Positions 1 through 64,000 of a DNA stretch of 64,000 bases are shown one piece after another (position 1 is the stretch's first letter; every line of letters begins with the position of its first letter). Source of the DNA: Eledone cirrhosa (Eukaryota); contig OZ024764.1 of assembly GCA_964016885.1 (NCBI GenBank), positions 2,790,001-2,854,000 on the forward strand, written 5' to 3'. Position numbers and translations under genes: made by a program. The notes beneath the pieces were generated by a model that did no database searches, had not been told where the DNA came from, and saw only the letters and a list, made by a program, of their open reading frames with translations.

Positions 1-3000
1 GAGTGACTACTTGAGTGAGACAGTGGGACTAGTGAGGAGTGACTCTACTTGAGTGAGACGGTGGGACTAGTGAGGAGTGACTCTACTTGAGTGAGACAGT
101 GGGACTAGTGAGGAGTGACTCTACTCGAGTGAGACAGTGGAACTAGTGAGGAGTGACTCTACTTGAGTGAGACAGTGGGACTAGTGAGGAGTGACTCTAC
201 TTGAGTGAGACGGTGAAACTAGTCAGGAGTGACTCTACTTGAGTGAGACGGTGAAACTAGTGAGGAGTGACTCTACTTGAGTGAGACAGTGGGACTAGTG
301 AGGAGTGACTCTACTTGAGTGAGACAGTGGGACTAGTGAGGAGTGACTCTACTTGAGTGAGACAGTGGGACTAGTGAGGAGTGACTCTACTTGAGTGAGA
401 CAGTGGGACTAGTGAGGAGTGACTCTACTTGAGTGAGACAGTGGAACTAGTGAAGAGTGACTCTACTTGAGTGAGACAGTGGGACTAGTGAGGAGTGACT
501 CTACTTGAGTGAGACGGTGGAACTAGTGAGGAGTGACTCTACTTGAGTGAGACAGTGGGACTAGTGAGGAGTGACTCTACTCGAGTGAGACAGTGGAACT
601 AGTGAGGAGTGACTCTACTTGAGTGAGACAGTGGGACTAGTGAGGAGTGACTCTACTTGAGTGAGACGGTGAAACTAGTCAGGAGTGACTCTACTTGAGT
701 GAGACGGTGAAACTAGTGAGGAGTGACTCTACTTGAGTGAGACAGTGGGACTAGTGAGGAGTGACTCTACTTGAGTGAGACAGTGGGACTAGTGAGGAGT
801 GACTCTACTTGAGTGAGACGGTGGGACTAGTGAGGAGTGAATCTACTTGAGTGAGACGGTGGGACTAGTGAGGAGTGACTCTACTTGAGTGAGACAGTGG
901 GACTAGTGAGGAGTGACTCTACTTGAGTGAGACAGTGGGACTAGTGAGGAGTGACTCTACTTGAGTGAGACAGTGGGACTAGTGAGGAGTGACTCTACTT
1001 GAGTGAGACAGTGGGACTAGTGAGGAGTGACTCTACTTGAGTGAGATGGTGGGACTAGTGAGGAGTGACTCTACTCGAGTGAGACAGTGGGACTAGTGAG
1101 GAGTGATTCTACTCGAGTGAGACAGTGGGACTAGTGAGGAGTGACTCTACTTGAGTGAGACAGTGGGACTAGTGAGGAGTGACTCTACTTGAGTGAGACG
1201 GTGGGACTAGTGAGGAGTGACTCTACTTGAGTGAGACGGTGGGACTAGTGAGGAGTGACTCTACTTGAGTGAGACTGTGGGACTAGTGAGGAGTGACTCT
1301 ACTTGAGTGAGACAGTGGGACTAGTGAGGAGTGACTCTACTTGAGTGAGACAGTGGGACTAGTGAGGAGTGACTCTACTTGAGTGAAACAGTGGGACTAG
1401 TGAGGAGTGACTCTACTTGAGTGAGATGGTGGGACTAGTGAGGAGTGACTCTACTCGAGTGAGACAGTGGGACTAGTGAGGAGTGACTCTACTTGAGTGA
1501 GACAGTGGAACTAGTGAGGAGTGACTCTACTTGAGTGAGACAGTGGGACTAGTGAGGAGTGACTCTACTTGAGTGAGACAGTGGGACTAGTGAGGAGTGA
1601 CTCTACTTGAGTGAGACAGTGGAACTAGTGAGGAGTGACTCTACTTGAGTGAGACAGTGGAACAAGTGAAGAGTGACTCTACTTGAGTGAGACAGTGGGA
1701 CTAGTGAGGAGTGACTCTACTTGAGTGAGACGGTGAAACTAGTGAGGAGTGACTCTACTTGAGTGAGACGGTGAAACTAGTGAGGAGTGACACTACTTGA
1801 GTGAGACAGTGGGACTAGTGAGGAGTGACTCTACTTGAATGAGACAGTGGGACTAGTGAGGAGTGACTCTACTTGAGTGAGACGGTGGGACTAGTGAGGA
1901 GTAACTCTACTTGAGTGAGACGGTGGGACTAGTGAGGAGTGACTCTACTTGAGTGAGACAGTGGGACTAGTGAGGAGTGACTCTACTTGAGTGAGACAGT
2001 GGGACTAGTGAGGAGTGACTCTACTTGAGTGAGACAGTGGGACTAGTGAGGAGTGACTCTACTTGAGTGAGACAGTGGAACTAGTGAGGAGTGACTCTAC
2101 TTGAGTGAGACAGTGGAACTAGTGAGGAGTGACTCTACTTGAGTGAGACAGTGGGAATAGTGAGGAGTGACTCTACTTGAGTGAGACGGTGAAACTAGTG
2201 AGGAGTGACTCTACTTGAGTGAGACAGTGGAACTAGTGAGGAGTGACTCTACTTGAGTGAGACAGTGGGAGTAGTGAGGAGTGACTCTACTTAAGTGAGA
2301 CGGTGAAACTAGTGAGGAGTGACTCTACTTGAGTGAGACAGTGGGACTAGTGAGGAGTGACTCTATTTGAGTGAGACAGTGGGACTAGTGTGGAGTGACT
2401 CTACTTGAGTGAGACGGTGAAACTAGTGAAGAGTGACTCTACTTGAGTGAGAGTGGGACTAGTGAGGAGTGACTCTACTTGAGTGAGACAGTGGGACTAG
2501 TGAGGAGTGACTCTACTTGAGTGAGACGGTGAAACTAGTGAGGAGTGACTCTACTTGAGTGAGACGGTGGGACTAGTGAGGAGTGACTCTACTTGAGTGA
2601 GACAGTGGAACTAGTGAGGAGTGACTCTACTTGAGTGAGACAGTGGGACTAGTGAGGAGTGACTCTACTTGAGTGAGACAGTGGGACTAGTGAGGAGTGA
2701 CTCTACTTAAGTGAGACGGTGAAACTAGTGAGGAGTGACTCTACTTGAGTGAGACAGTGGGACTAGTGAGGAGTGACTCTACTTGAGTGAGACAGTGGGA
2801 CTAGTGAGGAGTGACTCTACTTGAGTGAGACAGTGGGACTAGTGAGGAGTGACTCTACTTGAGTGAGACGGTGAAACTAGTGAGGAGTGACTCTACTTGA
2901 GTGAGACAGTGGAACTAGTGAGGAGTGACTCTACTTGAGTGAGACAGCGGGACTAGTGAGGAGTGACTCTACTTAAGTGAGACAGTGGGACTAGTGAGGA

Positions 3001-5506
3001 GTGACTCTACTTGAGTGAGACAGTGGGACTAGTGAGGAGTGACTCTACTTGAGTGAGACAGTGGGACTAGTGAGGAGTGACTCTACTTGAGTGAGACAGT
3101 GGAACTAGTGAGGAGTGACTCTACTTGAGTGAGACAGTGGGACTAGTGAGGAGTGACTCTACTTGAGTGAGACAGTGGGACTAGTGAGGAGTGACTCTAC
3201 TTGAGTGAGACAGTGGAACTAGTGAGGAGTGACTCTACTTGAGTGAGACAGTGGAACTAGTGAGGAGTGACTCTACTTGAGTGAGACAGTGGGACTAGTG
3301 AGGAGTGACTCTACTTGAGTGAGACAGTGGAACTAGTGAGGAGTGACTCTACTTGAGTGAGACAGTGGGACTAGTGAGGAGTGACTCTACTTGAGTGAGA
3401 CAGTGGGACTAGTGAGGAGTGACTCTACTTGAGTGAGACAGTGGGACTAGTGAGGAGTGACTCTACTTGAGTGAGACAGTGGGACTAGTGAGGAGTGACT
3501 CTACTTGAGTGAGACAGTGGAACTAGTGATGAGTGACTCTACTTGAGTGAGACAGTGGAACTAGTGAGGAGTGACTCTACTTGAGTGAGACGGTGGAACT
3601 AGTGAGGAGTGACTCTACTTGAGTGAGACAGTGGGACTAGTGAGGAGTGACTCTACTTGAGTGAGACAGTGGGACTAGTGAGGAGTGACTCTACTCGAGT
3701 GAGACAGTGGGACTAGTGAGGAGTGATTCTACTCGAGTGAGACAGTGGGACTAGTGAGGAGTGACTCTACTTGAGTGAGACAGTGGGACTAGTGAGGAGT
3801 GACTCTACTTGAGTGAGACGGTGGGACTAGTGAGGAGTGACTCTACTTGAGTGAGACTGTGGGACTAGTGAGGAGTGACTCTACTTGAGTGAGACAGTGG
3901 GACTAGTGAGGAGTGACTACTTGAGTGAGACAGTGGGACTAGTGAGGAGTGACTCTACTTGAGTGAGACAGTGGGACTAGTGAGGAGTGACTCTACTCGA
4001 GTGAGACAGTGGGACTAGTGAGGAGTGACTCTACTTGAGTGAGACGGTGAAACTAGTGAGGAGTGACTCTACTTGAGTGTGACAGTGGGACTAGTGAGGA
4101 GTGACTCTACTTGAGTGAGACAGTGGGACTAGTGAGGAGTGACTCTACTTGAGTGAGACAGTGGAACTAGTGAGGAGTGACTCTACTTGAGTGAGACAGT
4201 GGAACTAGTGAAGAGTGACTCTACTTGAGTGAGACAGTGGGACTAGTGAGGAGTGACTCTACTTGAGTGAGACAGTGGGACTAGTGAGGAGTGACTCTAC
4301 TTGAGTGAGACGGTGAAACTAGTGAGGAGTGACTCTACTTGAGTGAGACGGTGAAACTAATGAGGAGTGACACTACTTGAGTGAGACAGTGGGACTAGTG
4401 AGGAGTGACTCTACTTGAATGAGACAGTGGGACTAGTGAGGAGTGACTCTACTTGAGTGAGACGGTGGGACTAGTGAGGAGTAACTCTACTTGAGTGAGA
4501 CGGTGGGACTAGTGAGGAGTGACTCTACTTGAGTGAGACAGTGGGACTAGTGAGGAGTGACTCTACTTGAGTGAGACAGTGGGACTAGTGAGGAGTGACT
4601 CTACTTGAGTGAGACAGTGGGACTAGTGAGGAGTGACTCTACTTGAGTGAGACAGTGGAACTAGTGAGGAGTGACTCTACTTGAGTGAGACAGTGGAACT
4701 AGTGAGGAGTGACTCTACTTGAGTGAGACAGTGGGAATAGTGAGGAGTGACTCTACTTGAGTGAGACGGTGAAACTAGTGAGGAGTGACTCTACTTGAGT
4801 GAGACAGTGGAACTAGTGAGGAGTGACTCTACTTGAGTGAGACAGTGGGAGTAGTGAGGAGTGACTCTACTTAAGTGAGACGGTGAAACTAGTGAGGAGT
4901 GACTCTACTTGAGTGAGACAGTGGGACTAGTGAGGAGTGACTCTACTTGAGTGAGACAGTGGAACTAGTGAGGAGTGACTCTACTTGAGTGAGACAGTGG
5001 GACTAGTGAGGAGTGACTCTACTTGAGTGAGACAGTGGGACTAGTGAGGAGTGACTCTACTTGAGTGAGACAGTGGGACTAGTGAGGAGTGACTCTACTT
5101 GAGTGAGACAGTGGGACTAGTGAGGAGTGACTCTACTTGAGTGAGACAGTGGAACTAGTGATGAGTGACTCTACTTGAGTGAGACAGTGGAACTAGTGAG
5201 GAGTGACTCTACTTGAGTGAGACGGTGGAACTAGTGAGGAGTGACTCTACTTGAGTGAGACAGTGGAACTAGTGAGGAGTGACTCTACTTGAGTGAGACA
5301 GTGGGATTAGTGAGGAGTGACTCTACTTGAGTGAGACAGTGGGACTAGTGAGGAGTGACTCTACTTGAGTGAGACAGTGGGACTAGTGAGGAGTGACTCT
5401 ACTTGAGTGAGACGGTGGAACTAGTGAGGAGTGACTCTACTTGAGTGAGACAGTGGAACTAGTGAGGAGTGACTCTACTTGAGTGAGACAGTGGGACTAG
5501 TGAGGA
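1..5506 (+). repeat. 38-bp tandem satellite (about 145 copies, runs off window start)
   Basis: Unit GAGTGACTCTACTTGAGTGAGACAGTGGGACTAGTGAG; period 38 (e.g. 151 to 189); few variants (GGAA, GAAA, CGG). Confidence 0.98.
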
Positions 5507-6253: not shown

Positions 6254-6454
6254 TATATCACAGAAAAAAAAAGAGAATCAGTGTTGCGACGAAAGGAATT
6301 TATTGGACATATTACAATCGTTTCTCTGGCGACCAGCTCGAGGCACGATCGATGTGGTGATCAAACCTGACTCTGAAATCGCAAGGTCCTCAGATACATC
6401 TCGATTCTACGAAGCAGATTTTCCTATTATATATATATATTTCCAATTATATAT

Positions 6455-7607: not shown

Positions 7608-7649
7608 TTATTTGTCATTGCAACATCATATAAACAAACCCAAGTGCAG

Positions 7650-9700
7650 CAGGGTTCAGAGATTGAAGAGGTGGGAGAAGATTTCTCATATCTTGGCAGT
7701 TTTATGAACACTTAACAGGATGTGAACACCAGGACAGGCAAGGTATGGGGGGGCAGGTCTCCCTATCAAATGTCTATGTGTCTCTGATCAAAAGTGTGTC
7801 TATTCAAAGCAACAGTTGAGTCCTGTCTCGTCTAGAGATGTGAGTCACGGACACCCTGTCATTAATCCTCTATCGGGATGTTTTTGTCACCAGGGATGCT
7901 GAGAAAGATTTAGAACATATCCTGGAGTACACACAGCAAATAATTCACTCTCTCACATTGCTGCAATATACCCAGCTGAAAATGAGGGGTCAGTGGTGGC
8001 TGGGGGTGTTTAGGGGTCAATTCCAGGACTGGGTTGTCTGTTGTGTTGAGCAAAACACTGTCATTACACATTGCTGCAATATACCCAGCTTTTATGAACA
8101 CTTAACAGGATGTGAACACCAGGACAGGCAAGGTATGGGGGGGCAGGTCTCCCTATCAAATGTCTATGTGTCTCTGATCAAAAGTGTGTCTATTCAAAGC
8201 AACAGTTGAGTCCTGTCTCGTCTAGAGATGTGAGTCACGGACACCCTGTCATTAATCCTCTATCGGGATGTTTTTGTCACCAGGGATGCTGAGAAAGATT
8301 TAGAACATATCCTGGAGTACACACAGCAAATAATTCACTCTCTCACATTGCTGCAATATACCCAGCTGAAAATGAGGGGTCAGTGGTGGCTGGGGGTGTT
8401 TAGGGGTCAATTCCAGGACTGGGTTGTCTGTTGTGTTGAGCAAAACACTGTCATTACACATTGCTGCAATATACCCAGCTTTTATGAACACTTAACAGGA
8501 TGTGAACACCAGGACAGGCAAGGTATGGGGGGGCAGGTCTCCCTATCAAATGTCTATGTGTCTCTGATCAAAAGTGTGTCTATTCAAAGCAACAGTTGAG
8601 TCCTGTCTCGTCTAGAGATGTGAGTCACGGACACCCTGTCATTAATCCTCTATCGGGATGTTTTTGTCACCAGGGATGCTGAGAAAGATTTAGAACATAT
8701 CCTGGAGTACACACAGCAAATAATTCACTCTCTCACATTGCTGCAATATACCCAGCTGAAAATGAGGGGTCAGTGGTGGCTGGGGGTGTTTAGGGGTCAA
8801 TTCCAGGACTGGGTTGTCTGTTGTGTTGAGCAAAACACTGTCATTACACATTGCTGCAATATACCCAGCTTTTATGAACACTTAACAGGATGTGAACACC
8901 AGGACAGGCAAGGTATGGGGGGGCAGGTCTCCCTATCAAATGTCTATGTGTCTCTGATCAAAAGTGTGTCTATTCAAAGCAACAGTTGAGTCCTGTCTCG
9001 TCTAGAGATGTGAGTCACGGACACCCTGTCATTAATCCTCTATCGGGATGTTTTTGTCACCAGGGATGCTGAGAAAGATTTAGAACATATCCTGGAGTAC
9101 ACACAGCAAATAATTCACTCTCTCACATTGCTGCAATATACCCAGCTGAAAATGAGGGGTCAGTGGTGGCTGGGGGTGTTTAGGGGTCAATTCCAGGACT
9201 GGGTTGTCTGTTGTGTTGAGCAAAACACTGTCATTACACATTGCTGCAATATACCCAGCTTTTATGAACACTTAACAGGATGTGAACACCAGGACAGGCA
9301 AGGTATGGGGGGGGGGGGGGGGCAGGTCTCCCTATCAAATGTCTATGTGTCTCTGATCAAAAGTGTGTCTATTCAAAGCAACAGTTGAGTCCTGTCTCGT
9401 CTAGAGATGTGAGTCACGGACACCCTGTCATTAATCCTCTATCGGGATGTTTTTGTCACCAGGGATGCTGAGAAAGATTTAGAACATATCCTGGAGAACA
9501 CACAGCAAATAATTCACTCTCTGGCTCACATTTTCACATTTCTGACATCATAATGCAGTGGAGGCTGGCATTAGCCAAACATTTGAAACATCACAATGAA
9601 CCTTCTTCTTGTCGTGTCCACAAGAGAATGAGTTACTAGCTTGGCTAGATGTGGTTCAGCTCAACACATTGCTGTCCTTTCTCATTGAACTCTGCCAAGT
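7650..9700 (+). mobile_element. Old degenerate RTE-type LINE ORF2 C-terminal region, interrupted by the 390-bp array
   Basis: Decayed motifs IEEVGEDFSYLGS, FKATVESCLV*RCESRT, RMLRKI*NISW and IMQWRLALAKH occur in RTE order. Confidence 0.65.
7700..9523 (+). repeat. 390-bp tandem repeat, about 4.7 essentially identical copies
   Basis: Identical ORFs recur every 390 bp (7958, 8348, 8738, 9128); last copy has an expanded G run near 9307-9322. Confidence 0.97.
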
Positions 9701-10570
9701 CCAATACTGTACAGGGGTGTTCCAGCAGGGATGTTTCAATACTGTGCAGGGGTGTTCCAGCAGGGATGTTTCAATACTGTGCAGGGGTGTTCCAGCAGGG
9801 GTGTTCCAATGCTGTACAGGGGTGTTCCAGCAGGGATGTTTCAATACTGTGCAGGGGTGTTCCAGCAGGGGTGTTCCAATGCTGTACAGGGGTGTTCCAG
9901 CAGGGGTGTTCCAATACTGTACAGGGGTGTTCCAGCTGGGGTGTTTCAATACTGTGCAGGGGTGTTCCAATGCTGTGCAGGGGTGTTCCAGCAGGGATGT
10001 TTCAATACTGTGCAGGGGTGTTCCAATGCTGTGCAGGGGTGTTCCAGCTGGGATGTTTCAATACTGTGCAGGGGTGTTCCAATGCTGTACAGGGGTGTTC
10101 CAGCAGGGATGTTTCAATACTGTGCAGGGGTGTTCCAATGCTGTGCAGGGGTGTTCCAGCAGGGGTGTTCCAATACTGTGCAGGGGTGTTCCAATACTGT
10201 ACAGGGGTGTTCCAGCTGGGGTGTTTCAATACTGTGCAGGGGTGTTCCAATACTGTACAGGGGTGTTCCAGCTGGGGTGTTTCAATACTGTGCAGGGGTG
10301 TTCCAATACTGTGCAGGGGTGTTCCAGCTGGGGTGTTTCAATACTGTGCAGGGGTGTTCCAATGCTGTGCAGGGGTGTTCCAGCTGGGATGTTTCAATAC
10401 TGTGCAGGGGTGTTCCAATGCTGTGCAGGGGTGTTCCAGCTGGGATGTTTCAATACTGTGCAGGGGTGTTCCAGCTGGGATGTTTCAATACTGTGCAGGG
10501 GTGTTCCAATGCTGTGCAGGGGTGTTCCAGCTGGGATGTTCCAAACCTGTGCAGGGGTGTTCCAGCAGGG
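9701..10570 (+). repeat. Composite minisatellite of 21-bp (CAATACTGTGCAGGGGTGTTC) and about 13-bp (CAGCAGGGATGTT) modules
   Basis: Direct reading; modules are interleaved irregularly. Confidence 0.95.
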
Positions 10571-10985: not shown

Positions 10986-11257
10986 TGCTACACAATCTTT
11001 GGCCAATCATGAGCATCTCCGGTTAAGGGCTCTATATATAGAACTGTTTTGAGAAGATGTGAAAGAGAGTTAAACAAAGACTTCATGATAAGTAGATAAT
11101 TGTCATATTCATTAAATAATATGTGTTAATTTAGTGATTAATTGAGGTCTTAATTAGTTAAAAATTCCTCAATTAGATTAAGTAGTCAGGTTAAAAAAAA
11201 TTACTTTTGTGATTGTTTTGAGGTTTTGTAATTAATATATATATATATTAATATATA

Positions 11258-11676
11258 TGTGCTGCATGGTAGTGAGACATGGGCAGCAACTGCAGAGAAA
11301 TGAGGCAAGCATGCTCCGTTGGATGTGCAGTGTCAATGTGCGTGAATGACCCAGCATGAATGTGTTGAAAGAGAAACTGTGTCTGAGAGGGATAGAATGT
11401 AGTGTGCGAGAGAAGAGACTGAGGTGGTATGGACATGTGATGCGCATGGAGGATGACCGCTGGGTGAAGAAGTGCCAGGAAATGCCAGTTGAAGGAAGAC
11501 ATTGTAGAGGTAGACCACGAAAAACATGGGCGGAGGTGGTGAGAACAGACCTCAGATTGCTGAAGCTCACGGTGGAGATGACGAAGGACCGTGACAAGTG
11601 GAGAGATGCTGTGTTGAATAAGACCCGTCCCACCCTTGCAAGCAGGGAAAAGCGGACGTAAAATGATGATGATGAT
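11258..11676 (+). mobile_element. RTE-clade LINE 3' fragment (family I); single-copy version of the 80-bp satellite source
   Basis: VLHGSETWA...MLRWMC...EKRLRWYGHVMRMEDDRWVKKC...GRPRKTW...DRDKWR, then a (GAT)n tail. Confidence 0.93.
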
Positions 11677-11876
11677 AATATATATATATTACTCTCAGCA
11701 GAAGTGACGGGATATGTAATTGTGACAACCGCTAATGAGCAAGAAATGGCCATCGGTTGCTTCCCTTTGTTTTTGCTGAGACCAAGTAAGTGACATAGCA
11801 AATGGTCTTCAAAATGTTTTAAAATAAACACAGTATATTATCAAATATACTATACATACATATATATATATATATA

Positions 11877-12845: not shown

Positions 12846-14065
12846 ACCACCACCACCACCATTATCACCCACGCTAGCATGGGTTAGACGGTTTTGTTCC
12901 ATTTGATGCCGGAATGGTATGGAGATCGTATCTCGCTTGCACAGAAGTGTCTCAGGCAGGTTTTTTTTACAGCTGGATGCCCTTCCTAACACCAACCACA
13001 TTTACAGTGTGGACTGGGAGCCTTTTCACCGTGTCTCCTACATGACCACTTTACAGTGTGGACTGGGAGCCTTTTCACCGTGTCTCCTGCACGGCCACTT
13101 TACTGTGTGGAATGGGAGCCTTTTTACCGTGTCTCCTACATGACCACTTTACAGTGTGGACAGGGAGCCTTTTTACCGTGTCTCCTGCACGGCCACTTTA
13201 CTGTGTGGACTGGGAGCCTTTTTACCGTGTCTCCTACACGACCACTTTACAGTGTGGACTGGGAGCCTTTTTACCGTGTCTCCTACACTACCACTTTACA
13301 GTGTGGACTGGGAGCCTTTTTACCGTGTCTCCTACATAACCACTTTACAGTGTGGACTGGGAGCCTTTTTACCGTGTCTCCTACACGGCCACCTTACAGT
13401 GTGGACTGGGAGCCTTTTTACTGTGTCTCCTACACGACCACTTTACAGTGTGGACTGGGAGCCTTTTTACTGTGTCTCCTACATGACCACCTTACAGTGT
13501 GGACTGGGAGCCTTTTTACTGTGTCTCCTACATGACCACTTTACAGTGTGAACTGGGAGCCTTTTCACCGTGTCTCCTACATGACCACTTTACAGTGTGA
13601 ACTGGGAGCCTTTTTACTGTGTCTCCTACATGACCACTTTACAGTGTGAACTGGGAGCCTTTTCACCGTGTCTCCTACACAACCACTTTACAGTGTGGAC
13701 TGGGAGCCTTTTTACCGTGTCTCCTACATAACCACTTTACAGTGTGGACTGGGAGCCTTTTTACCGTGTCTCCTACACGGCCACCTTACAGTGTGGACTG
13801 GGAGCCTTTTTACCGTGTCTCCTACACGGCCACTTTACAGTGTGGACTGTTGTGTCATCGACACAGTGGATGGAACGGGAGAGGGAGGATGGGGTAGGGT
13901 GTGGCGGTGGGGTGTACATTGGGTTAAGAGGTGCCTACTGACTGTAGTTTGTATGCAATGGCAGTCGGGTCTTCTGTACAACTACATGGCACCAAAAGAC
14001 TCAATCCAGTGTCATTGTCTTAGAGGAGTGTAGGTGAGCAAGATCAGTTTTTATCACCTCATCCC

Positions 14066-14295: not shown

Positions 14296-14866
14296 TCATC
14301 ATCATCATCATTTAACGTCCATCTTCCACGCTTGCATGGGTTTGGATGTGAGTTTTCCCACTTGGGGCAAGAGTGGTTGTCTTGCTCATATAGGACTGTC
14401 TGGCAGGTTTTCTACGGCTGGATGCCCTTCCTAACACCAACCACGTTTACAGTGTGGACTGGGAGGTTTTTACCGTGTTACCTACACGGCCACATTACAG
14501 CGTGGACTGTGTGTTTTTTGTCGTGACACCTACACGGCCACATTACAGCGTGGACTGTGTGTTTTTTGTCGTGACACCTACACGGCCACATTACAGCGTG
14601 GACTGTGTGTTTTTTGTCGTGACACCTACACGGCCACATTACAGCGTGGACTGTGTGTTTTTTGTCGTGACACCTACACGGCCACATTACAGCGTGGACT
14701 GTGTTTTTTTGTCGTGACACCTACACGGCCACATTACAGCGTGGACTGTGTGTTTTTTGTCGTGACACCTACACGGCCACATTACAGCGTGGACTGTTTT
14801 TTTTTGTCGTGACACCTACACGGCCACATTACAGCGTGGACTGTGTGTTTTTTTGCCGTGACACCT
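14296..14866 (-). mobile_element. RTE 3' UTR fragment with a 48-bp array (14481-14866, about 8 copies)
   Basis: Matches 22488-22730; unit CCTACACGGCCACATTACAGCGTGGACTGTGTGTTTTTTGTCGTGACA. Confidence 0.85.
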
Positions 14867-15316
14867 ATATATATATATATATATATATAGTGCATGTTTC
14901 TCATCTTCTTTGACATGACATTTTAATTTTGTTAGTATTTGATGCTCCTAAACATTTTGTTAGTTGAGCTTTTACTGCTATTTCTAGCTGTCAATAAACC
15001 TATTCACACCACTGGCTTGACGGCGGGGTGCTGTGTATTTTACCAAACCACACATACTTTTCATCGTTATTCCCTGATTTGTTCTAAGGGTATAGTCACA
15101 GATAATTAAATCTTCTCCTATGCTGATGATCCCAGACTTGACATCCGTGATTCACAGATTAATGGTGAAATATATTTCTTTAAAGGAATATATACAAAGG
15201 GGATTAATCATTATTGCAAGGTAGCTATATTCTACATTTATATTCATAGTTCTCTTTAATTTTTAATATGTTACCGCCGTAACTATGTATGTTTACACTC
15301 TTTTCAAATTATCCCG

Positions 15317-15490: not shown

Positions 15491-15491
15491 A

Positions 15492-17026: not shown

Positions 17027-17061
<35 letters not shown>

Positions 17062-19350: not shown

Positions 19351-19354
19351 AAAA

Positions 19355-32898: not shown

Positions 32899-32945
32899 CT
32901 AACCACTCAGCCACACGCCAGGTTGCCCAATGGCAAATGGGCCCC

Positions 32946-35900: not shown

Positions 35901-36347
35901 GAGAGACCACAGCTCTGATACTACAGACATGTGGTTAGAATGTCTCAGGTAAGAATCTCTAAATTGAGAGATCACAGCTCTGATACTACAGACATATGGT
36001 TAGAATGTCTCAGGAAAGAATCTCTGAATTGAGAGATCACAGCTCTGATACTACAGACATGTGGTTAGAATGTCTGAGAAAAGAACCTCTGAATTGAGAG
36101 ACCACAGCTCTGATACTACAGACATGTGGTTAGAATGTCTCAGGTAAGAATCTCTAAATTGAGAGATCACAGCTCTGATACTACAGACATATGGTTAGAA
36201 TGTCTCAGGAAAGAATCTCTGAATTGAGAGATCACAGCTCTGATACTACAGACATGTGGTTAGAATGTCTCAGGTAAGAATCTCTAAATTGAGAGATCAC
36301 AGCTATGATACTACAGACATGTGGTTAGAATGTCTGAGGAAAGAATT
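32946..36347 (+). repeat. 65-bp satellite (about 52 copies) derived from RTE ORF2
   Basis: Unit CTCTGAATTGAGAGATCACAGCTCTGATACTACAGACATGTGGTTAGAATGTCTCAGGAAAGAAT; period 65 (33010 to 33075). Confidence 0.97.
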
Positions 36348-52959: not shown

Positions 52960-53870
52960 TCATCATCATCATCGTTTAATGTCCATCTTCCACGCTAGCA
53001 TGGGTTAGACGGGAGTTGTCCCACTTGAGGCAAGTTGGATCGGGTGACCGTGTCTCGCTCATATAGGACTATCTGGCAGGTTTTCCACGGCTGGATGCCA
53101 TTCCTAACACCAACAACATTTACAGTGTGGACTGGGAACTTTTTACCGTGTCTCCTACACAGCCACATTACAGTGTGGACTGTGTGTTTTTTTGTCATGA
53201 CACCTACATGACCACTTTACAGTGGACTGGGAACATTTTACCTTGTCTCCTACACAACCACATTACAGTGTGGACTGTGTGTTTTTTTGTCATGACACCT
53301 ACATGACCACTTTACAGTGTGGACTGGGAACTTTTTACCGTGTCTCCTACACAACCACTTTACAGTGTGGACTGTGTTTTTTTGTCATGACACCTACATG
53401 ACCACTTTACAGTGTGGACTGGGAACCTTTTACCGTGTCTCCTACATAACCACATTACAGCGTGGACTGTGTGTTTTTTTGTCATGACACCTACATGACC
53501 ACTTTACAGTGTGGACTGGGAACTTTTTATCGTGTCTCCTACACAGCCACATTACAGCGTGGACTGTGTGTTTTTTTGTCATGATACCTACATGACCACT
53601 TTACAGTGTGGACTGGGAACCTTTTACCGTGTCTCCTACATAACCACATTACAGCGTAGACTGTGTTTTTGTCGTGACCCCTACACAACCTCTTTAGTTT
53701 GGACTGGATGTTGTGGAACCAACATAACTTTGTAGAGAAAGGGTGGTGTTGGAGGGAGTGGAAGGATGGGGTAGTGGATTGGGGTGTATATTTGGTTTGG
53801 AGGGGCCTACTGACTGTAGGTTAACTTTGTACATAAGGAAGGTGGGTCTTCTGTATTACAGCATTGCGCC
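52960..53870 (-). mobile_element. RTE 3' UTR with alternating two-monomer array (53120-53690)
   Basis: Matches 29445-29890; the GGGAAC-type and TGTGTT-type about 49-bp units alternate. Confidence 0.88.
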
Positions 53871-54046: not shown

Positions 54047-54157
54047 ATGCCAAGCAAACGTAAACGTCCCACTCAGAATGTAGACAACAAGAGTGAAGAT
54101 TCGGATCTATCAACTCATGTTTCCAATAAGAAGAAGAGAAAGGCTCCGTATGATCCT
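54047..54157 (+). CDS. PBRM1: First coding exon of a host gene, polybromo-1 (BAF180)-like N-terminus; exon 53939-54157
   Basis: Polypyrimidine acceptor TTTTTCTTTATTCATTTCAG|, AAAATATG start, MPSKRKRPTQ...KKKRKAPYDP, phase-0 donor |GTGAGT. Resembles recalled PBRM1 starts (MGSKRRR...RKRRR..VDP; fly ...KKRRLDP). The exon call is stronger than the gene identity. Confidence 0.55.
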
Positions 54158-54189
54158 GTGAGTAACTCCTTTATTTCTCTTAACCCTTT

Positions 54190-54398: not shown

Positions 54399-55157
54399 TA
54401 GCTCTGATACTACAGACATGTGGTTAGAATGTCTGAGGAAAGAATCTCTGAATTGAGAGATCACAGCTCTGATACTACAGACATGTGGTTAGAATGTCTC
54501 AGGAAAGAATCTCTGAATTTAGAGATGACAGCTCTGATACTACACACATGTGATTAGAATGTCTCAGGAAAGAATCTCTGAATTGAGAGATCACAGCTCT
54601 GATACTACAGACATGAGGTTAGAATGTCTCAGGAAAGAATTTCCAAATTGAGAGATCACAGCTCTGAAACTACAGACATGTGATAAGAATGTCTCAGGAA
54701 AGAATCTCTGAATTGAGAGATCACAGCTCTGATACTACAGACATGTGGTTAGAATGTCTCAGGAAAGAATCTCTGAATTGAGAGATCACAGCTCTGATAC
54801 TACATGTGATTAGAATGTCTCAGGAAGGAATCTCTGAATTGAGAGATCACAGCTCTGATACTACAGGCATGTGCTTAGAATGTCTCACAAAAGAATCTCT
54901 GAATTGAGAGATCACAGCTCTGATACTACAGACATGTGGTTAGAATGTCTCAGGAAAGAATCTCTGAATTGAGAGATCACAGCTCTGATACTACACACAT
55001 GTGGTTAGAATGTCTCAGGTAAGAATCTCTGAAGTGAGAGATCACAGCTCTGATACTACAGACATGTGGTTAGAATGTCTCAGGAAAGAATCTTTGAATT
55101 GAGAGATCACAGCTCTGATACTACAAACATGTGGTTAGAATGTCCCAGGAAAGAATC
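54399..55157 (+). repeat. Second array of the 65-bp satellite (about 11.5 copies)
   Basis: Same unit as 32946-36347 with different variants. Confidence 0.96.
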
Positions 55158-56251
55158 TTGCTCAGTATGTAGGAAAGGTGTAGGTAGGAACTCCAGTCTC
55201 TGTCCCAAATGCAAACAATGGGTACACAAGAGATCTAGCGGGATCTCAAGAAGCTTAATTAAGAATGTAGGCTTCACATGCAGCAGCTGTGCTGGGACAG
55301 CAAGCAGCAAACAGCCACAGGAAACAAGTACCACTAATCTCTGGGAGGGCTCTGTAGAAACAGTAGACAGCTTCTGCTACCTAGGTGACCAAATTAGCAG
55401 CGGAGGTGGGTGTTCAGAAAATACAATAACTAGGGTAAGAACGGGATGGAAGAAGTTCAGGAAACTCCTGCCACTGCTAGCTGCAAATGGCTTCTCCCTC
55501 AGAATGAAAGGCAGACTGTATGATGCGTGTATCCGAACAGCAATGTTGCATGGTAGTGAGACCTGGGCACTGAAGGTGGAAGACTTACGTAGATTAGAAA
55601 GAAACGAAGCCTGCATGCTCCGATGGATGTGTAATAGTAATAATCGCAAACGACAAAGCATAAATGGATTGAGAGAGAGACTGAGCATAAGAGGAATCAA
55701 ATGCTGTGTGCAAGAGAGGCGGTTGCGTTGGTATGGACATGTGATGCGTATGAAGGATGACAGCTGCATAAAAAGGTGCAGAACACTAGAAGTCAATGGA
55801 AATCGCGGAGTGGGGAGACCCAAGAAGACCTGGGATGAGGTGATAAAAGCTGACCTTATCCAATTACACCTCTCAAAGGTGATGACACACGACCGTGACC
55901 TCTGGCGTCACGCAGTAATACAGAGTACCCGACCTCCCATGGGTACAAGCTGAAGCATATTGACAATATGCCCCCACACCCTCCCAGTGCAAGGTGGTCG
56001 TGGAGGTGCCATGGCAAAAAAGCACCCAGCCCACACTGTAAAGTGGACATGTAGGCGCCACGGAAAAAGCACCCAGTACTCGCTGCAAATGAGGTTGGTG
56101 TTAGGAAGGGCATCCAGCTGTAGAAATAAAGCCAAAATCAGTTCCTGTATGAGCAAGGTATGGTCAGCTGACCAGACACTGCCCGCAACAGGACAACCCG
56201 TCTAACCCATGCTAGCGTGGAAGAACGGACGTAAAACGGTGATGATAATGA
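55158..56251 (+). mobile_element. RTE LINE family II 3' part
   Basis: CSVCRKGVGRNS...FCYLGD...HGSETWAL...RRLRWYGHVMRM, UTR and (GAT)n; near-identical to 50480-51466 inverted. Confidence 0.95.
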
Positions 56252-56254
56252 TAC

Positions 56255-58762
56255 TAGAGTAATGTAAATGTTATGTGAGATATTATGTGAGGTAAAGCCT
56301 TTACTGTGAAAATATAATAGTATATATAGAGTAATGTAAATGTTATGTGAGGTAAAGCCTTTACTGTGAAAATACAATAGTATATATAGAGTAATGTAAA
56401 TGTTATGTGAGATATTATGTGAGGTAAAGCCTTTACTGTGACAATACAATAGTATATATAGAGTAATGTAAATGTTATGTGAGATATTATGTGAGGTAAA
56501 GCCTTTACTGTGACAATACAATAGTATATATAGAGTAATGTAAATGTTATGTGAGATATTATGTGAGGTAAAGCCTTTACTGTGAAAATACAATAGTATA
56601 TATAGAGTAATGTAAATGTTATGTGAGATATTATATGAGGTAAAGCCTTTACTGTGAAAATACAATAGTATATATAGAGTAATGTAAATGTTATGTGAGG
56701 TAAAGCCTTTACTGTGAAAATACAATAGTATATATAGAGTAATGTAAATGTTATGTGAGATATTATGTGAGGTAAAGCCTTTACTGTGACAATACAATAG
56801 TATATATAGAGTAATGTAAATGTTATGTGAGATATTATGTGAGGTAAAGCCTTTACTGTGACAATACAATAGTATATATAGAGTAATGTAAATGTTATGT
56901 GAGATATTATGTGAGGTAAAGCCTTTACTGTGACAATACAATAGTATATATAGAGTAATGTAAATGTTATGTGAGATATTATGTGAGGTAAAGCCTTTAC
57001 TGTGACAATACAATAGTATATATAGAGTAATGTAAATGTTATGTGAGATATTATGTGAGGTAAAGCCTTTACTGTGAAAATACAATAGTATATAGAGAGT
57101 AATGTAAATGTTATGTGAGGTAAAGCCTTTACTGTGAAAATACAATAGTATATAGAGAGTAATGTAAATGTTATGTGAGGTAAAGCCTTTACTGTGAAAA
57201 TACAATAGTATATAGAGAGTAATGTAAATGTTATGTGAGATATTATGTGAGGTAAAGCCTTTACTGTGAAAATACAATAGTATATAGAGAGTAATGTAAA
57301 TGTTATGTGAGGTAAAGCCTTTACTGTGAAAATACAATAGTATATATAGAGTAATGTAAATGTTATGTGAGATATTATGTGAGGTAAAGCCTTTACTGTG
57401 AAAATACAATAGTATATAGAGAGTAATGTAAATGTTATGTGAGGTAAAGCCTTTACTGTGAAAATACAATAGTATATATAGAGTAATGTAAATGTTATGT
57501 GAGGTAAAGCCTTTACTGTGAAAATACAATAGTATATATAGAGTAATGTAAATGTTATGTGAGATATTATGTGAGGTAAAGCCTTTACTGTGAAAATACA
57601 ATAGTATATAGAGAGTAATGTAAATATTATGTGAGGTAAAGCCTTTACTGTGAAAATACAATAGTATATAGAGAGTAATGTAAATGTTATGTGAGGTAAA
57701 GCCTTTACTGTGAAAATACAATAGTATATATAGAGTAATGTAGATGTTATGTGAGATATTATGTGAGGTAAAGCCTTTACTGTGAAAATACAATAGTATA
57801 TAGAGAGTAATGTAAATGTTATGTGAGGTAAAGCCTTTACTGTGAAAATACAATAGTATATAGAGAGTAATGTAAATGTTATGAGATATTATGTGAGGTA
57901 AAGCCTTTACTGTGAAAATACAATAGTATATAGAGAGTAATGTAAATGTTATGTGAGGTAAAGCTTTTACTGTGAAAATACAATAGTATATAGAGAGTAA
58001 TGTAAATGTTATGTGAGATATTATGTGAGGTAAAGCCTTTACTGTGAAAATACAATAGTATATATAGAGTAATGTAAATGTTATGTGAGATATTATGTGA
58101 GGTAAAGCCTTTACTGTGACAATACAATAGTATATATAGAGTAATGTAAATGTTATGTGAGATATTATGTGAGGTAAAGCCTTTACTGTGAAAATACAAT
58201 AGTATATATAGAGTAATGTAGATGTTATGTGAGATATTATGTGAGGTAAAGCCTTTACTGTGAAAATACAATAGTATATAGAGAGTAATGTAAATGTTAT
58301 GTGAGGTAAAGCCTTTACTGTGAAAATACAATAGTATATAGAGAGTAATGTAAATGTTATGTGAGGTAAAGCCTTTACTGTGAAAATACAATAGTATATA
58401 GAGAGTAATGTAAATGTTATGTGAGGTAAAGCCTTTACTGTGAAAATACAATAGTATATAGAGAGTAATGTAAATGTTATGTGAGATATTATGTGAGGTA
58501 AAGCCTTTACTGTGACAATACAATAGTATATATAGAGTAATGTAAATGTTATGTGAGATATTATGTGAGGTAAAGCCTTTACTGTGACAATACAATAGTA
58601 TATATAGAGTAATGTAAATGTTATGTGAGATATTATGTGAGGTAAAGCCTTTACTGTGAAAATACAATAGTATATAGAGAGTAATGTAAATGTTATGTGA
58701 GATATTGTGAGGTAAAGACTTTACTGTGACAATACAATAGTATATATAGAGTACTGTAAATG
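56255..58762 (+). repeat. AT-rich 60/72-bp satellite (about 37 copies)
   Basis: Unit AGAGTAATGTAAATGTTATGTGAG[ATATTATGTGAG]GTAAAGCCTTTACTGTGAAAATACAATAGTATATAT; the 12-bp segment is optional. Confidence 0.97.
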
Positions 58763-58789
58763 CTAAAGGGTTAATATGGTACTTAGTAC

Positions 58790-61660
58790 ATGAGGTCTTA
58801 GTCTTGGGTTCTTCCGCCACATCAAGCAGTAAATAGTCGCCAATGATCACGACCAGTGGAGGCTTTATTACGTCTGTCCCAAGTAATGTTGGCTTTCGTC
58901 ACGTCATATTGGACTGTTTGCCGCCAGGTGATCCTGGGGCAACCCCACCTCCGTTTGCTGTCGGGTGTAGTCTAGTTCATCGTTGTTTTCAAGTGTCGTT
59001 CGTTGTGCAGGGGCAGAATATAGCCAGCCAGGCAACAGCAGCACTTCGTGACCACCCTCTGCTAGACAGCCAGGTGACACCAGAGCTCTGTGACCACCCT
59101 CTGTAGACAGCCAGGTGACACCAGAGCTCTGTGACCACCCTCTGCTAGTCAGCCAGGTGACACCAGAGCTCTGTGACCACCCTCTGCTAGACAGCCAGGT
59201 GACACCAGAGCTCTGTGACCACCCTCTGCTAGTCAGCCAGGTGACACCACAGCTCTGTGACCACCCTCTGCTAGACAGTCACGTGACACCAGAGCTCTGT
59301 GACCACCCTCTGCTAGACAGCCAGGTGACACCAGAGCTCTGTGACCACCCTCTGCTAGACAGCCAGGTGACACCAGAGCTCTGTGACCACCCTCTGCTAG
59401 ACAGCCAGGTGACACCAGAGCTCTGTGACCACCCTCTGCTAGACAGCCAGGTGACACCAGAGCTCTGTGACCACCCTCTGCTAGACAGCCAGGTGACACC
59501 AGAGCTCTGTGACCACCCTCTGCTAGACAGCCAGGTGACACCAGAGCTCTGTGACCACCCTCTGCTAGACAGCCAGGTGACACCAGCGCTCTGTGACCAC
59601 CCTCTGCTAGACAGCCAGGTGACACCAGAGCTCTGTGACCACCCTCTGCTAGACAGCCAGGTGACACCAGAGCTCTGTGACCACCCTCTGCTAGACAGCC
59701 AGGTGACACCAGAGCTCTGTGACCACCCTCTGTAGTCAGCCAGGTGACACCAGAGCTCTGTGACCACCCTCTGCTAGACAGCCAGGTGACACCAGAGCTC
59801 TGTGACCACCCTCTGCTAGACAGCCAGGTGACACCAGAGCTCTGTGACCACCCTCTGCTAGGCAGTCACGTGACACCAGAGCTCTGTGACCACCCTCTGC
59901 TAGTCAGCCAGGTGACACCACAGCTCTGTGACCACCCTCTGCTAGACAGTCACGTGACACCAGAGCTCTGTGACCACCCTCTGCTAGACAGCCAGGTGAC
60001 ACCAGAGCTCTGTGACCACCCTCTGCTAGTCAGCCAGGTGACACCACAGCTCTGTGACCACCCTCTGCTAGACAGTCACGTGACACCAGAGCTCTGTGAC
60101 CACCCTCTGCTAGACAGCCAGGTGACACCAGAGCTCTGTGACCACCCTCTGCTAGACAGCCAGGTGACACCAGAGCTCTGTGACCACCCTCTGCTAGACA
60201 GCCAGGTGACACCAGAGCTCTGTGACCACCCTCTGCTAGACAGCCAGGTGACACCAGAGCTCTGTGACCACCCTCTGCTAGACAGCCAGGTGACACCAGC
60301 GCTCTGTGACCACCCTCTGCTAGACAGCCAGGTGACACCAGAGCTCTGTGACCACCCTCTGCTAGACAGCCAGGTGACACCAGAGCTCTGTGACCACCCT
60401 CTGCTAGACAGTCACGTGACACCAGCGCTCTGTGACCACCCTCTGCTAGACAGCCAGGTGACACCAGCGCTCTGTGACCACCCTCTGCTAGACAGCCAGG
60501 TGACACCAGAGCTCTGTGACCACCCTCTGCTAGACAGTCACGTGACACCAGAGCTCTGTGACCACCCTCTGCTAGTCAGCCAGGTGACACCAGCGCTCTG
60601 TGACCACCCTCTGCTAGACAGCCAGGTGACACCAGAGCTCTGTGACCACCCTCTGCTAGACAGCCAGGTGACACCAGAGCTCTGTGACCACCCTCTGCTA
60701 GACAGTCACGTGACACCAGAGCTCTGTGACCACCCTCTGCTAGACAGCCAGGTGACACCAGCGCTCTGTGACCACCCTCTGCTAGACAGCCAGGTGACAC
60801 CAGAGCTCTGTGACCACCCTCTGCTAGACAGCCAGGTGACACCAGAGCTCTGTGACCACCCTCTGCTAGACAGCCAGGTGACACCAGAGCTCTGTGACCA
60901 CCCTCTGCTAGACAGCCAGGTGACACCAGAGCTCTGTGACCACCCTCTGCTAGTCGGCCAGGTGACACCAGAGCTCTGTGACCACCCTCTGCTAGACAGC
61001 CAGGTGACACCAGAGCTCTGCTAGACAGCCAGGTGACACCAGAGCTCTGTGACCACCCTCTGTAGACAGCCAGGTGACACCAGAGCTCTGTGACCACCCT
61101 CTGCTAGTCAGCCAGGTGACACCAGAGCTCTGTGACCACCCTCTGCTAGTCAGCCAGGTGACACCAGAGCTCTGTGACCACCCTCTGCTAGTCAGCCAGG
61201 TGACACCACAGCTCTGTGACCACCCTCTGCTAGACAGCCAGGTGACACCAGAGCTCGGTGACCACCCTCTGCTAGTCAGCCAGGTGAACCAGAGCTCTGT
61301 GACCACCCTCTGCTAGTCAGCCAGGTGACACCAGAGCTCTGTGACCACCCTCTGCTAGTCAGCCAGGTGACACCACAGCTCTGTGACCACCCTCTGCTAG
61401 ACAGCCAGGTGACACCAGAGCTCGGTGACCACCCTCTGCTAGTCAGCCAGGTGACACCAGAGCTCTGTGACCACCCTCTGCTAGACAGCCAGGTGACACC
61501 AGAGCTCTGTGACCACCCTCTGTAGCGTCCACAACTCAGCTCTCCCCAGGATTTCCTTGTTTCACACTCAGTTACGCCAGGACACACGAAGGATCCTTCG
61601 CAGGCCCCACTGGTGGAATGTGTTCAGCCCTCACTCTATCTTTTATGTGCTCCGCGTGTG
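58790..61660 (-). mobile_element. Old RTE-type LINE 3' region (family IV) interrupted by the 42-bp array
   Basis: Upstream flank LNTFHQWGLRRILRVSWRN*V*NKEILGRAELWTLQRVVT; downstream flank LAGYILPLHNERHLKT...KRRWGCPRITWRQT...GRDHWR. Confidence 0.8.
59048..61524 (+). repeat. 42-bp satellite (about 59 copies)
   Basis: Unit GTGACCACCCTCTGCTAGACAGCCAGGTGACACCAGAGCTCT. Confidence 0.98.
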
Positions 61661-61946
61661 ACTCCTTTGCCGATCTGACAGTTGATGTCAGATAGAGAGG
61701 GGATGTGGTTTATTTAAGATTGAAATCATCAGGGAAGTCCTGATGATTGCAACGGGAAGTTGTTAAACATTTGGTCATTCTGTAGCTAAAGTTGTGTTAT
61801 GTAGTAGTGGTTGGTGAGTGTTAATTAGTTACAGCCCAACAGTCGAGCTCCTACGTCTGTAACTCTTTAAAAATTTACAGATATACCCACAATGCATTTC
61901 CTATCTCAGTCATATTATTACAATAAGGGGTTCCCTTATTCCAATG

Positions 61947-62137
61947 GCTGTGGAATGGCAGTATCGGTAGAGGGTCGGACGCCATGCTTTGACGCATAGA
62001 GTTACGCCCCTTGCCATTCTGAGTTCAAATCCCGCCGAGGTTAACTTTGTCTTTCATCCTTACGGGGTCGATAAAATAAAGTACCAGTAATGCACTGGGA
62101 AATTTGGTGGCCTTGTGCCAAAAGTAGAAACAATTAT
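61947..62137 (+). mobile_element. SINE family 2 copy at the edge of the 73-bp array
   Basis: Matches 48997-49185. Confidence 0.85.
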
Positions 62138-64000
62138 TACAATAAGAGGTTCCCTTTCCAATCACAAGATCCTGGGTTCTAACCCCTACATTACTTCTCA
62201 GTCATATTATTACAATAAGAGGTTCCCTTTCCAATCACAAGGTCCTGGGTTCTAACCCCTACATTACTTCTGTCATATTATTACAATAAGAGGTTCCCTT
62301 TCCAATCACAAGGTCCTGTGTTCTAACCCCTATATTACTTCTCAGTCATATTATTACAATAAGAGGTTCCCTTTCCAATCACAAGGTCCTGTGTTCTAAC
62401 CCCTACATTACTTCTCAGTCATATTATTACAATAAGAGGTTCCCTTTCCAATCACAAGGTCCTGGGTTCTAACCCCTACATTACTTCTCAGTCATATTAT
62501 TACAATAAGAGGTTCCCTTTCCAGTCACAAGGTCCTGGGTTCTAACCCCTACATTACTTCTGTCATATTATTACAATAAGAGGTTCCCTTTCCAATCACA
62601 AGGTCCTGTGTTCTAACCCCTACATTACTTCTCAGTCTTATTATTACAATAAGAGGTTCCCTTTCCAATCACAAGGTCCTGGGTTCTAACCCCTACATTA
62701 CTTCTCAGTCTTATTATTACAATAAGAGGTTCCCTTTCCAATCACAAGATCCTGGGTTCTAACCCCTATATTACTTCTCAGTCATATTATTACAATAAGA
62801 GGTTCCCTTTCCAATCACAAGGTCCTGGGTTCTAACCCCTACATTACTTCTCAGTCATATTATTACAATAAGAGGTTCCCTTTCCAATCACAAGGTCCTG
62901 GGTTCTAACCCCTACATTACTTCTGTCATATTATTACAATAAGAGGTTCCCTTTCCAATCACAAGGTCCTGTGTTCTAACCCCTATATTACTTCTCAGTC
63001 ATATTATTACAATAAGAGGTTCCCTTTCCAATCACAAGGTCCTGTGTTCTAACCCCTACATTACTTCTCAGTCATATTATTACAATAAGAGGTTCCCTTT
63101 CCAATCACAAGGTCCTGGGTTCTAACCCCTACATTACTTCTCAGTCATATTATTACAATAAGAGGTTCCCTTTCCAGTCACAAGGTCCTGGGTTCTAACC
63201 CCTACATTACTTCTGTCATATTATTACAATAAGAGGTTCCCTTTCCAATCACAAGGTCCTGTGTTCTAACCCCTACATTACTTCTCAGTCTTATTATTAC
63301 AATAAGAGGTTCCCTTTCCAATCACAAGGTCCTGGGTTCTAACCCCTACATTACTTCTCAGTCTTATTATTACAATAAGAGGTTCCCTTTCCAATCACAA
63401 GATCCTGGGTTCTAACCCCTATATTACTTCTCAGTCATATTATTACAATAAGAGGTTCCCTTTCCAATCACAAGGTCCTGGGTTCTAACCCCTACATTAC
63501 TTCTCAGTCATATTATTACAATAAGAGGTTCCCTTTCCAATCACAAGGTCCTGTGTTCTAACCCCTACATTACTTCTCAGTCTTATTATTACAATAAGAG
63601 GTTCCCTTTCCAATCACAAGGTCCTGGGTTCTAACCCCTACATTACTTCTCAGTCTTATTATTACAATAAGAGGTTCCCTTTCCAATCACAAGATCCTGG
63701 GTTCTAACCCCTATATTACTTCTCAGTCTTATTATTACAATAAGAGGTTCCCTTTCCAATCACAAGGTCCTGTGTTCTAACCCCTACATTACTTCTCAGT
63801 CATATTATTACAATAAGAGGTTCCCTTTCCAATCACAAGGTCCTGGGTTCTAACCCCTACATTACTTCTCAGTCATATTATTACAATAAGAGGTTCCCTT
63901 TCCAGTCACAAGGTCCTGGGTTCTAACCCCTACATTACTTCTCAGTCATATTATTACAATAAGAGGTTCCCTTTCCAGTCACAAGGTCCTGGGTTCTAAC
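62133..64000 (+). repeat. 73-bp satellite (71-bp variants; runs off window end)
   Basis: Unit ATTATTACAATAAGAGGTTCCCTTTCCAATCACAAGGTCCTGGGTTCTAACCCCTACATTACTTCTCAGTCAT; period 73 (62141 to 62214). Confidence 0.97.

What the first reader, a model, noticed from the sequence alone, without database searches (positions are those of the whole stretch)
1..64000. Satellite nursery: most arrays still sit inside or next to the transposon they came from
Seen: 38-bp from Penelope-like endonuclease; 390-bp from RTE+SINE; 49/48-bp from RTE 3' UTR; 65/80/42-bp from RTE ORF2; 60/72-bp next to a TTAACCCTT end; 73-bp containing a tRNA-like B box. Known: TE-derived satellites are documented case by case. Inference: about ten independent kb-scale arrays in 64 kb, some apparently intronic, point to a locus- or genome-wide mechanism that amplifies any 40-80 bp segment bounded by short microhomology.
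Basis: partly seen in the sequence, partly recalled or inferred. Interest (0 to 1): 0.72.

Follow-up and report, generated by a model that had tools for sequence, protein, structure and literature searches.

The report
Octopus transposon-born minisatellite cluster
In an octopus-type genome, twelve tandem-repeat arrays cover 45% of a 64-kb stretch around the start of the polybromo-1 gene, and most sit inside the transposon fragment they match, likely grown there by a known route (a short segment between tiny direct repeats is duplicated, then re-duplicated), so the density is striking but the mechanism is probably ordinary.

Summary
The arrays are real in the sequence: 12 arrays, 28.6 kb, 44.7% of the window. 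Seven are 1 kb or longer; they trace to nine distinct unit origins. Ten of 12 touch their parent transposon on at least one side (RTE ORFs, a Penelope C-terminus, an RTE 3' UTR, a TTAA-ended MITE end). Three corrections: the 49/48/97-bp arrays expand one family-borne repeat; the second 65-bp array lies outside its parent; the 60/72-bp tandem form probably occurs at other loci. Seven of nine readable junctions have 3-9 bp microhomology (chance 6% each), but 875 such segments lie unamplified in 6 kb, so 'any segment' fails. Shared variants and nested block duplications fit stepwise growth, not one rolling-circle burst. Reads from two other animals carry the 60/72-bp tandem joints. Four arrays lie in the intron after the first coding exon of polybromo-1, whose orthologues are on 17- and 21-Mb scaffolds in two Octopus species. 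Verdict: TE-derived minisatellites of the Haber-Louis/Jurka-Gentles kind, at unusual density, possibly a small-chromosome or subtelomeric trait. Density across the genome and full array lengths were not tested.

The parts
7..5506 (+). 38-bp array, about 145 units, at the C-terminal end of a Penelope-like ORF remnant (flank to 5568); left end outside window
7700..9522 (+). 390-bp array, 4.7 units; composite unit of about 254 bp RTE ORF plus about 136 bp SINE piece, inside an RTE remnant (about 7632-9636)
9700..10570 (-).
   Evidence: family name RTE-X is recalled, not from a call
11250..11680 (+). unexpanded RTE copy holding the 80-bp unit once (control for the 80-bp array)
12995..13849 (+). 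49-bp array, 17 units, in RTE/SINE 3' UTR family
14447..14867 (+). 48-bp array, 8-9 units, same family; right flank is (TA)n
32945..36346 (+). 65-bp array, 52 units; right flank continues a parent RTE C-terminus to about 36536; left flank gave no RTE match
36644..44228 (+). 80-bp array, 95 units, inside an RTE ORF (36598-44460), both flanks parent
53119..53670 (+). 97-bp (49+48) array, same 3' UTR family
54047..54157 (+). first coding exon of polybromo-1 (PBRM1); GT donor at 54158; no further exon found up to 64000
54180..54189 (+). TTAACCCTTT end, facing its inverted partner at 58765-58774
   Evidence: 2 matches; 0 of 100 shuffles reach 2
54400..55158 (+). second 65-bp array, 11.7 units, between a 3' UTR-family copy and a 5'-truncated RTE of another family; neither flank is its parent
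56254..58762 (-). 60/72-bp array (14 x 60, 20 x 72, 2 x 70), terminal segment of a high-copy TTAA-ended MITE
58765..58774 (-). TTAACCCTTT end of the MITE adjoining the 60/72-bp array
59048..61522 (-). 42-bp array, about 59 units, inside a minus-strand RTE remnant (about 58825-61702)
62133..64000 (+). 73-bp array, at least 25 units, with a 9-unit block duplicated; parent undetermined; preceded by a SINE flanked by a duplicated stretch of about 31 bp of the unit

Best explanation
These are twelve tandem arrays whose units mostly match the transposon fragment they sit in, and they likely arose in place: a 14-80 bp segment between two 3-9 bp direct repeats was probably duplicated once by slippage or template switching, then likely lengthened stepwise by unequal exchange in ever larger blocks. 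Shown: units match parents, 7 of 9 readable junctions have microhomology, variants are shared and blocks are nested. Inferred: the enzymatic route; that the high density reflects a small-chromosome or subtelomeric, recombination-active setting with weak selection against intronic DNA; that the second 65-bp array and the SINE piece in the 390-bp unit were copied in from elsewhere during repair or reverse transcription. No function is proposed; the arrays are likely neutral VNTRs.
For: Parent on at least one side for 10 of 12 arrays. Microhomology by script: 3 bp (80-mer, also in the unexpanded paralogue), 4 bp (42-mer), 4 and 7 bp (21- and 14-mer), 9 bp in one and 3 bp in two of four single-unit 49-mer copies examined, one not scorable; 3 and 3 bp read by eye for the MITE units from loose ends. 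Null P(3 bp or more)=0.0595; 7 of 9 gives P 9e-8, 5e-5 at a null of 0.15. Variant occurrences in shared variants: 271 of 275 (80-mer), 135 of 148 (38-mer), 243 of 249 (first 65-mer), 35 of 35 (73-mer); repeated blocks of 13, 15, 4 and 9 units exceed all 200 shuffles, the 42-mer block 2 of 200. Four 41-bp units in the 42-mer array and one AAATA-type junction at 57620 match the predicted founding junctions. Orthologues on 17.06-Mb and 21.16-Mb scaffolds against a mean of about 93 Mb (2.8 Gb, 30 chromosomes). Satellites are 3.12% of O. vulgaris. Published model: PMC3389668, PMC6947457.
Against: Both junctions of the 390-bp unit have only 0-1 bp exact microhomology (read by eye). Junctions of the 38-, 65- and 73-bp units could not be read. 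Three arrays (49a, 48, second 65) show no repeated block, and the second 65-bp array has mostly private variants (5 of 26 shared). Junction positions were chosen by hand, so the binomial is optimistic. In human, short flanking repeats explained only 300 of 7,276 TE-derived repeats and most had two units (PMC3389668), so arrays of 50-145 units at this density need a stronger expansion force than that paper describes. 82% of the window is repeat-covered, so mere adjacency to a TE is weak evidence. The window's chromosomal position is unknown.
Confidence: 0.65

Rival explanations
1. Units loop out as extrachromosomal circles, amplify by rolling circle and reinsert in place or nearby.
For: The 390-bp unit is composite, nearly invariant (99%) and holds a circularly permuted SINE piece; the second 65-bp array has foreign flanks on both sides and shares 2 of 11 units exactly with the first array 18 kb away.
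Against: One burst from a monomer circle predicts identical units with private mutations; five arrays instead show shared variants and nested blocks. Circles of 14-80 bp are below the usual bendable size (own knowledge).
Confidence: 0.12
2. The RTE reverse transcriptase makes the repeats by template slippage or jumping during insertion, so arrays are born at integration.
For: Nine of 12 arrays derive wholly or partly from RTE- or LINE-type sequence; the second 65-bp array sits at the 5' truncation point of an RTE copy; younger human TEs carry more repeats (PMC3389668).
Against: A DNA-transposon end and a Penelope remnant are amplified the same way; nested blocks need later DNA-level events. 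It could explain only the first duplication.
Confidence: 0.1
3. The units are widespread satellite families, or TE-borne internal repeats, that were carried or inserted here.
For: True in part: the 49-bp repeat is a family trait with 1-17 units; go-back joints of the 60/72-bp unit reach contig depth 1374 and 1508 against about 10 for the unique spacer, more than 36 units explain; the second 65-bp array is outside its parent.
Against: The 80-, 42- and 35-bp arrays interrupt their parent with collinear flanks; the 42-bp unit has depth 121-136 and 350-363 against 9-16 for the spacer, and no reads over it in the two RAD runs, which fits one locus of tens of copies. Depth is no copy number by the tool's own warning.
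Confidence: 0.08
4. The arrays are over-expanded by the assembler.
For: Some internal blocks are exact copies (731 bp in the 73-mer, 1131 bp in the 80-mer). No listed read or contig spans an array. The 42-bp depth ratio in run X1 (about 13) is below the 58 assembled units.
Against: Structured shared variants; head-to-tail joints in raw reads of two other samples (back 72: 97 reads, 16 starts and 59 reads, 14 starts; back 60: 50 and 81 reads), though these may come from other loci; 42-bp unit depth well above single copy.
Confidence: 0.05

Closest known systems
TE-derived minisatellites of human (Ahmed and Liang 2012, PMC3389668; Haber-Louis 1998 and Jurka-Gentles 2006 models as cited there and in PMC6947457)
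   Same: Units are internal TE segments, single-locus and multi-locus classes, birth between short direct repeats, local stepwise expansion, family-borne repeats (LTR12, L1PA) like the 49-bp family here.
   Different: There 0.32% of the genome, mostly two or three units, no positional hotspots seen, flanking repeats of 5-20 bp; here up to 145 units, 45% of 64 kb, and mostly 3-4 bp microhomology.
Retrotransposon-derived satellites of Lathyrus sativus (Vondrak 2020, PMC7004042, abstract seen)
   Same: Short arrays inside dispersed retroelements expand into long arrays in favourable chromosome regions.
   Different: One LTR lineage's built-in repeats in pericentromeres; here several non-LTR, Penelope and MITE families, mostly with no pre-existing repeat, partly in a host-gene intron.
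Composite 'TE graveyard' satellite monomers (Satovic-Vuksic 2025, PMC12628747, passages seen)
   Same: Degraded remnants of several TEs tandemised as one unit, as in the 390-bp RTE+SINE unit.
   Different: Proposed as a hypothesis for heterochromatin; here the composite unit still sits in its RTE parent next to a gene.
Human subtelomeric VNTR enrichment (Linthorst 2020, PMC7608644, abstract seen)
   Same: Dense, often intronic minisatellites in one chromosomal compartment (21-fold enriched).
   Different: Those are GC above 60%; here GC is 27-60%, and the window's chromosomal position is unknown.

Membership tests
TE-derived minisatellite (Ahmed and Liang criteria) | Unit of 20 bp or more in head-to-tail array | tested here: met
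   the 35/56-bp array is built from 14- and 21-bp subunits
TE-derived minisatellite (Ahmed and Liang criteria) | Unit similar to, or overlapping by a full period, a TE | tested here: met
   11 of 12 arrays by unit (the 35/56-bp parent rests on a weak Atlas lead); 73-bp inconclusive
Haber-Louis birth model | Founding segment bounded by short direct repeats of 5-10 bp | tested here: inconclusive
   7 of 9 junctions have 3 bp or more, but only 2 of 9 reach 5 bp or more (7 and 9 bp)
Haber-Louis birth model | Later stepwise local expansion | tested here: met
   shared variants and nested blocks in 5 of 8 arrays analysed
VNTR | Copy number varies between alleles | not testable with these tools
Classical satellite DNA | Very long heterochromatic arrays of a genome-wide family | tested here: not met
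   arrays 0.4-7.6 kb (two cut by window ends), four in a gene intron; 42-bp unit at tens-fold depth
RTE-clade LINE (parents of 80, 65, 42, 390) | Homology to APE-RT ORF C-terminus | tested here: met
   profile of relatives bearing PF00078 and PF03372; the clade name RTE is recalled, no tree was built
Penelope-like element (parent of 38) | RT followed by C-terminal GIY-YIG endonuclease | tested here: inconclusive
   32 residues match the C-terminus of a profile built from relatives of the 17469-19860 element (E 4e-5); no Pfam GIY-YIG hit; family name recalled
piggyBac-type MITE (parent of 60/72) | TTAA target site and CCC-starting inverted ends, high copy, diverse flanks | tested here: met
   superfamily label recalled
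piggyBac-type MITE (parent of 60/72) | Linked autonomous transposase | not tested
   no genome held
eccDNA rolling-circle array | Free circles of the unit | not testable with these tools
   needs circle-enriched sequencing

The most novel reading that the evidence does not exclude
The smallest octopus chromosomes are a compartment where dead transposon fragments, even inside introns of conserved genes such as polybromo-1, are converted into private kilobase arrays at a far higher rate than in the rest of the genome, with arrays also copied between nearby loci. That would make them a natural series of satellite births with parents still attached, and would explain why these chromosomes assemble poorly.
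Probability: 0.3. Interest if true: 0.62.

Novelty: new member of a known kind. Interest (0 to 1): 0.38.

Why it matters
How minisatellites and satellites start is still partly open (PMC3389668 could assign only 6% of human TE-derived repeats to a model). Here several founding junctions can be read against intact parents within one window, which makes the microhomology model directly countable genome-wide. If the density is a trait of small octopus chromosomes, it bears on cephalopod intron expansion, assembly gaps and marker design. If it is one subtelomeric patch, it is an ordinary example.

Tried and rejected
No whole genome held, so density along the chromosome was not measured. Pfam gave no family for the short retroelement pieces, not even the clear RTE control, so it is uninformative. 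tblastn of 120 RTE relatives did not lift the 35/56-bp flanks, the 42-bp right flank or the 390-bp right flank above shuffled controls, and the 390-bp left piece only marginally (27.7 against 26.6 bits); a C-terminal profile did better. Long ORFs across arrays are by-products of stop-poor units. No tRNA gene. Atlas gave no hit for the exon peptide. No RNA holder listed. Candidate exons at 11692, 15110 and 16190 gave no Pfam hit and stay unassigned. Searches listed no paper on TE-derived minisatellites in octopus; four cephalopod genome papers and one repeat annotation, read in passages or parts, did not treat them; the library lacks most subscription papers. Look-ups of earlier findings by place and sequence were empty.
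Full report
Setting. The window is animal DNA; 82% is covered by repeats. The exon at 54047-54157 matches residues 1-37 of polybromo-1 of Octopus sinensis (33 of 38 identical including one intron codon, E 6e-16), so this is an octopod other than O. sinensis (inference). The exon ends at a GT donor and no further polybromo-1 exon was found up to 64000, so the second 65-bp, the 60/72-bp, the 42-bp and the 73-bp arrays lie in an intron of at least 9.8 kb. The orthologues are on scaffolds of 17.06 Mb (O. sinensis) and 21.16 Mb (O. vulgaris); O. vulgaris has 2.8 Gb in 30 chromosome-scale scaffolds (PMC13282606). That this locus is on a small chromosome in our species is an inference.

Observation. 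Twelve arrays of 400 bp or more cover 28,620 bp, 44.7%; seven are 1 kb or longer. I left out of this count the 67-bp (326 bp), 15-bp (299 bp) and two short 49-bp arrays, and all microsatellite-like tracts. For scale, satellites are 3.12% and simple repeats 7.45% of O. vulgaris (supplement of PMC13282606); species and methods differ, so the roughly 14-fold contrast is only indicative.

Parents. 80-bp: both flanks continue one RTE ORF, and two unexpanded paralogues in the window hold the unit once. 42-bp: flanks hit profile positions 145-166 and 193-241, collinear around the unit (6 of 200 and 0 of 200 shuffles). 390-bp: left flank plus unit 0 of 200, right flank 34 of 200 at the expected downstream position; the unit also holds a SINE piece. 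38-bp: last unit plus flank match the end of a Penelope-type profile, E 4e-5. 49/48/97-bp: one repeat inside a 3' UTR family with 0 to 17 units over 13 copies. 60/72-bp: about 17,000 contigs per run and about 15,000 reads per run lie on this unit; their loose ends run from the unit straight into CTAAAGGGTTAA and then into varied flanks, so the unit is the end of a very high-copy MITE; an inverted TTAACCCTTT lies 4.6 kb away. First 65-bp array: parent on the right only. Second 65-bp array: neither flank is the parent; 2 of its 11 units are identical to units of the first array, the rest differ by 1-5 bases. 73-bp: parent undetermined. Tally: 10 of 12 touch the parent on at least one side, 1 does not, 1 is undetermined; nine distinct origins. 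The clade names RTE, Penelope, piggyBac and RTE-X are recalled labels.

Founding junctions. Exact microhomology between the two breakpoints: 3 bp (80), 4 bp (42), 4 and 7 bp (21- and 14-bp subunits), up to 9 bp (49) by script; 3 and 3 bp for the MITE units by eye; 0-1 bp at both junctions of the 390-bp unit by eye. Random pairs reach 3 bp with P 0.0595; 7 of 9 gives P 9e-8, or 5e-5 with a null of 0.15. Breakpoints were picked by hand. Microhomology is not sufficient: 875 segments of 38-80 bp bounded by 4 bp or more lie unamplified in 6,080 bp of TE DNA.

Growth. Eight arrays were split into units. In the 38-, 80-, first 65- and 73-bp arrays nearly all variant occurrences are shared among units, and repeated multi-unit blocks beat all 200 shuffles; the 42-bp array 2 of 200. 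The 49-, 48- and second 65-bp arrays show no such block. This fits repeated duplication in blocks of growing size and not a single burst from a monomer circle. It also argues against random read error, though exact internal blocks of 731 and 1131 bp could be recent duplications or assembler over-expansion.

Reads. One stretch only (58615-59135) was laid, on 4 of 6 listed runs. X1 and X2 are one sample and may be the assembly's source; X4 and X5 are two other samples of another study. Head-to-tail joints going back 72 and 60 bases stand in both X4 and X5. One go-back joint has contig depth above 1300 against about 10 for the unique spacer, so the 60/72-bp tandem form probably exists elsewhere too. 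The 42-bp unit has depth 121-136 (X1) and 350-363 (X2), and no RAD reads, which fits one locus of tens of copies. Contig depth is no copy number, and no listed piece spans an array, so lengths are unverified.

Comparison. [quoted passage not shown] Ahmed and Liang found 23% of human minisatellites TE-derived, mostly short. Region-specific expansion is known from Lathyrus (PMC7004042, abstract) and human subtelomeres (PMC7608644, abstract). Composite monomers and microhomology-mediated joining are discussed in PMC12628747 and PMC9659126 (passages). I found no report for octopus in searches; PMC9115989, PMC10700109, PMC13652810 and PMC9795677 were seen in passages (one section), PMC13282606 in parts 1-2 of 3 plus its supplement. 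Supplements of the other genome papers were not read and may hold per-chromosome repeat tables.

Verdict. A real, unusually dense cluster of TE-born minisatellites: a new member of a known kind. Best explanation 0.65. The open and testable point is whether small octopus chromosomes are like this throughout (0.3). Interest 0.38.

Noticed in passing
window 54047-54157 (+): First coding exon of polybromo-1; a possible non-coding first exon ends at a GTAAGT donor near 47474, which would put the 97-bp and 15-bp arrays in intron 1.
   Followed up: partly
window 17300-19860: Penelope-like element with a 5' part inverted (19345-19860 on +) and inverted terminal copies at 17060-17320 and 19860-20110; the 556-aa ORF has a long low-complexity insert.
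   Followed up: partly
window 54180-58774: Inverted TTAACCCTTT ends enclose a 3' UTR-family copy, the second 65-bp array, a truncated RTE and the 60/72-bp array: possibly one MITE swollen to 4.6 kb by nested events.
   Followed up: partly
window 44600-46600: GC-rich element with a long imperfect inverted repeat (about 44600-45060 against 45370-45900) followed by a diverged 67-bp array of five units; no family assigned.
   Followed up: no
window 52087-52650: 15-bp array of TAGG-rich units (20 copies, 80% matches) next to an element end; telomere-like or Helitron-like by recall only.
   Followed up: no
window 11692-11790, 15110-15256, 16190-16318 (+): Exon-like open frames with plausible splice signals in unique DNA; no Pfam hit; may belong to an upstream host gene.
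   Followed up: partly
window 61914-62162: SINE flanked by a duplicated stretch of about 31 bp that is part of the 73-bp unit; may be a long target-site duplication just before the array.
   Followed up: partly
window 31554-32594 (-): Reverse transcriptase fragment (PF00078, E 2e-20) of a different LINE family, with no array in it.
   Followed up: partly
window 6060-6790, 15490-15830, 20515-20860: Chimeric short elements joining the RTE 3' UTR (one 49-bp unit) to a tRNA-type SINE head; two copies lie inverted around 6260-6430.
   Followed up: partly
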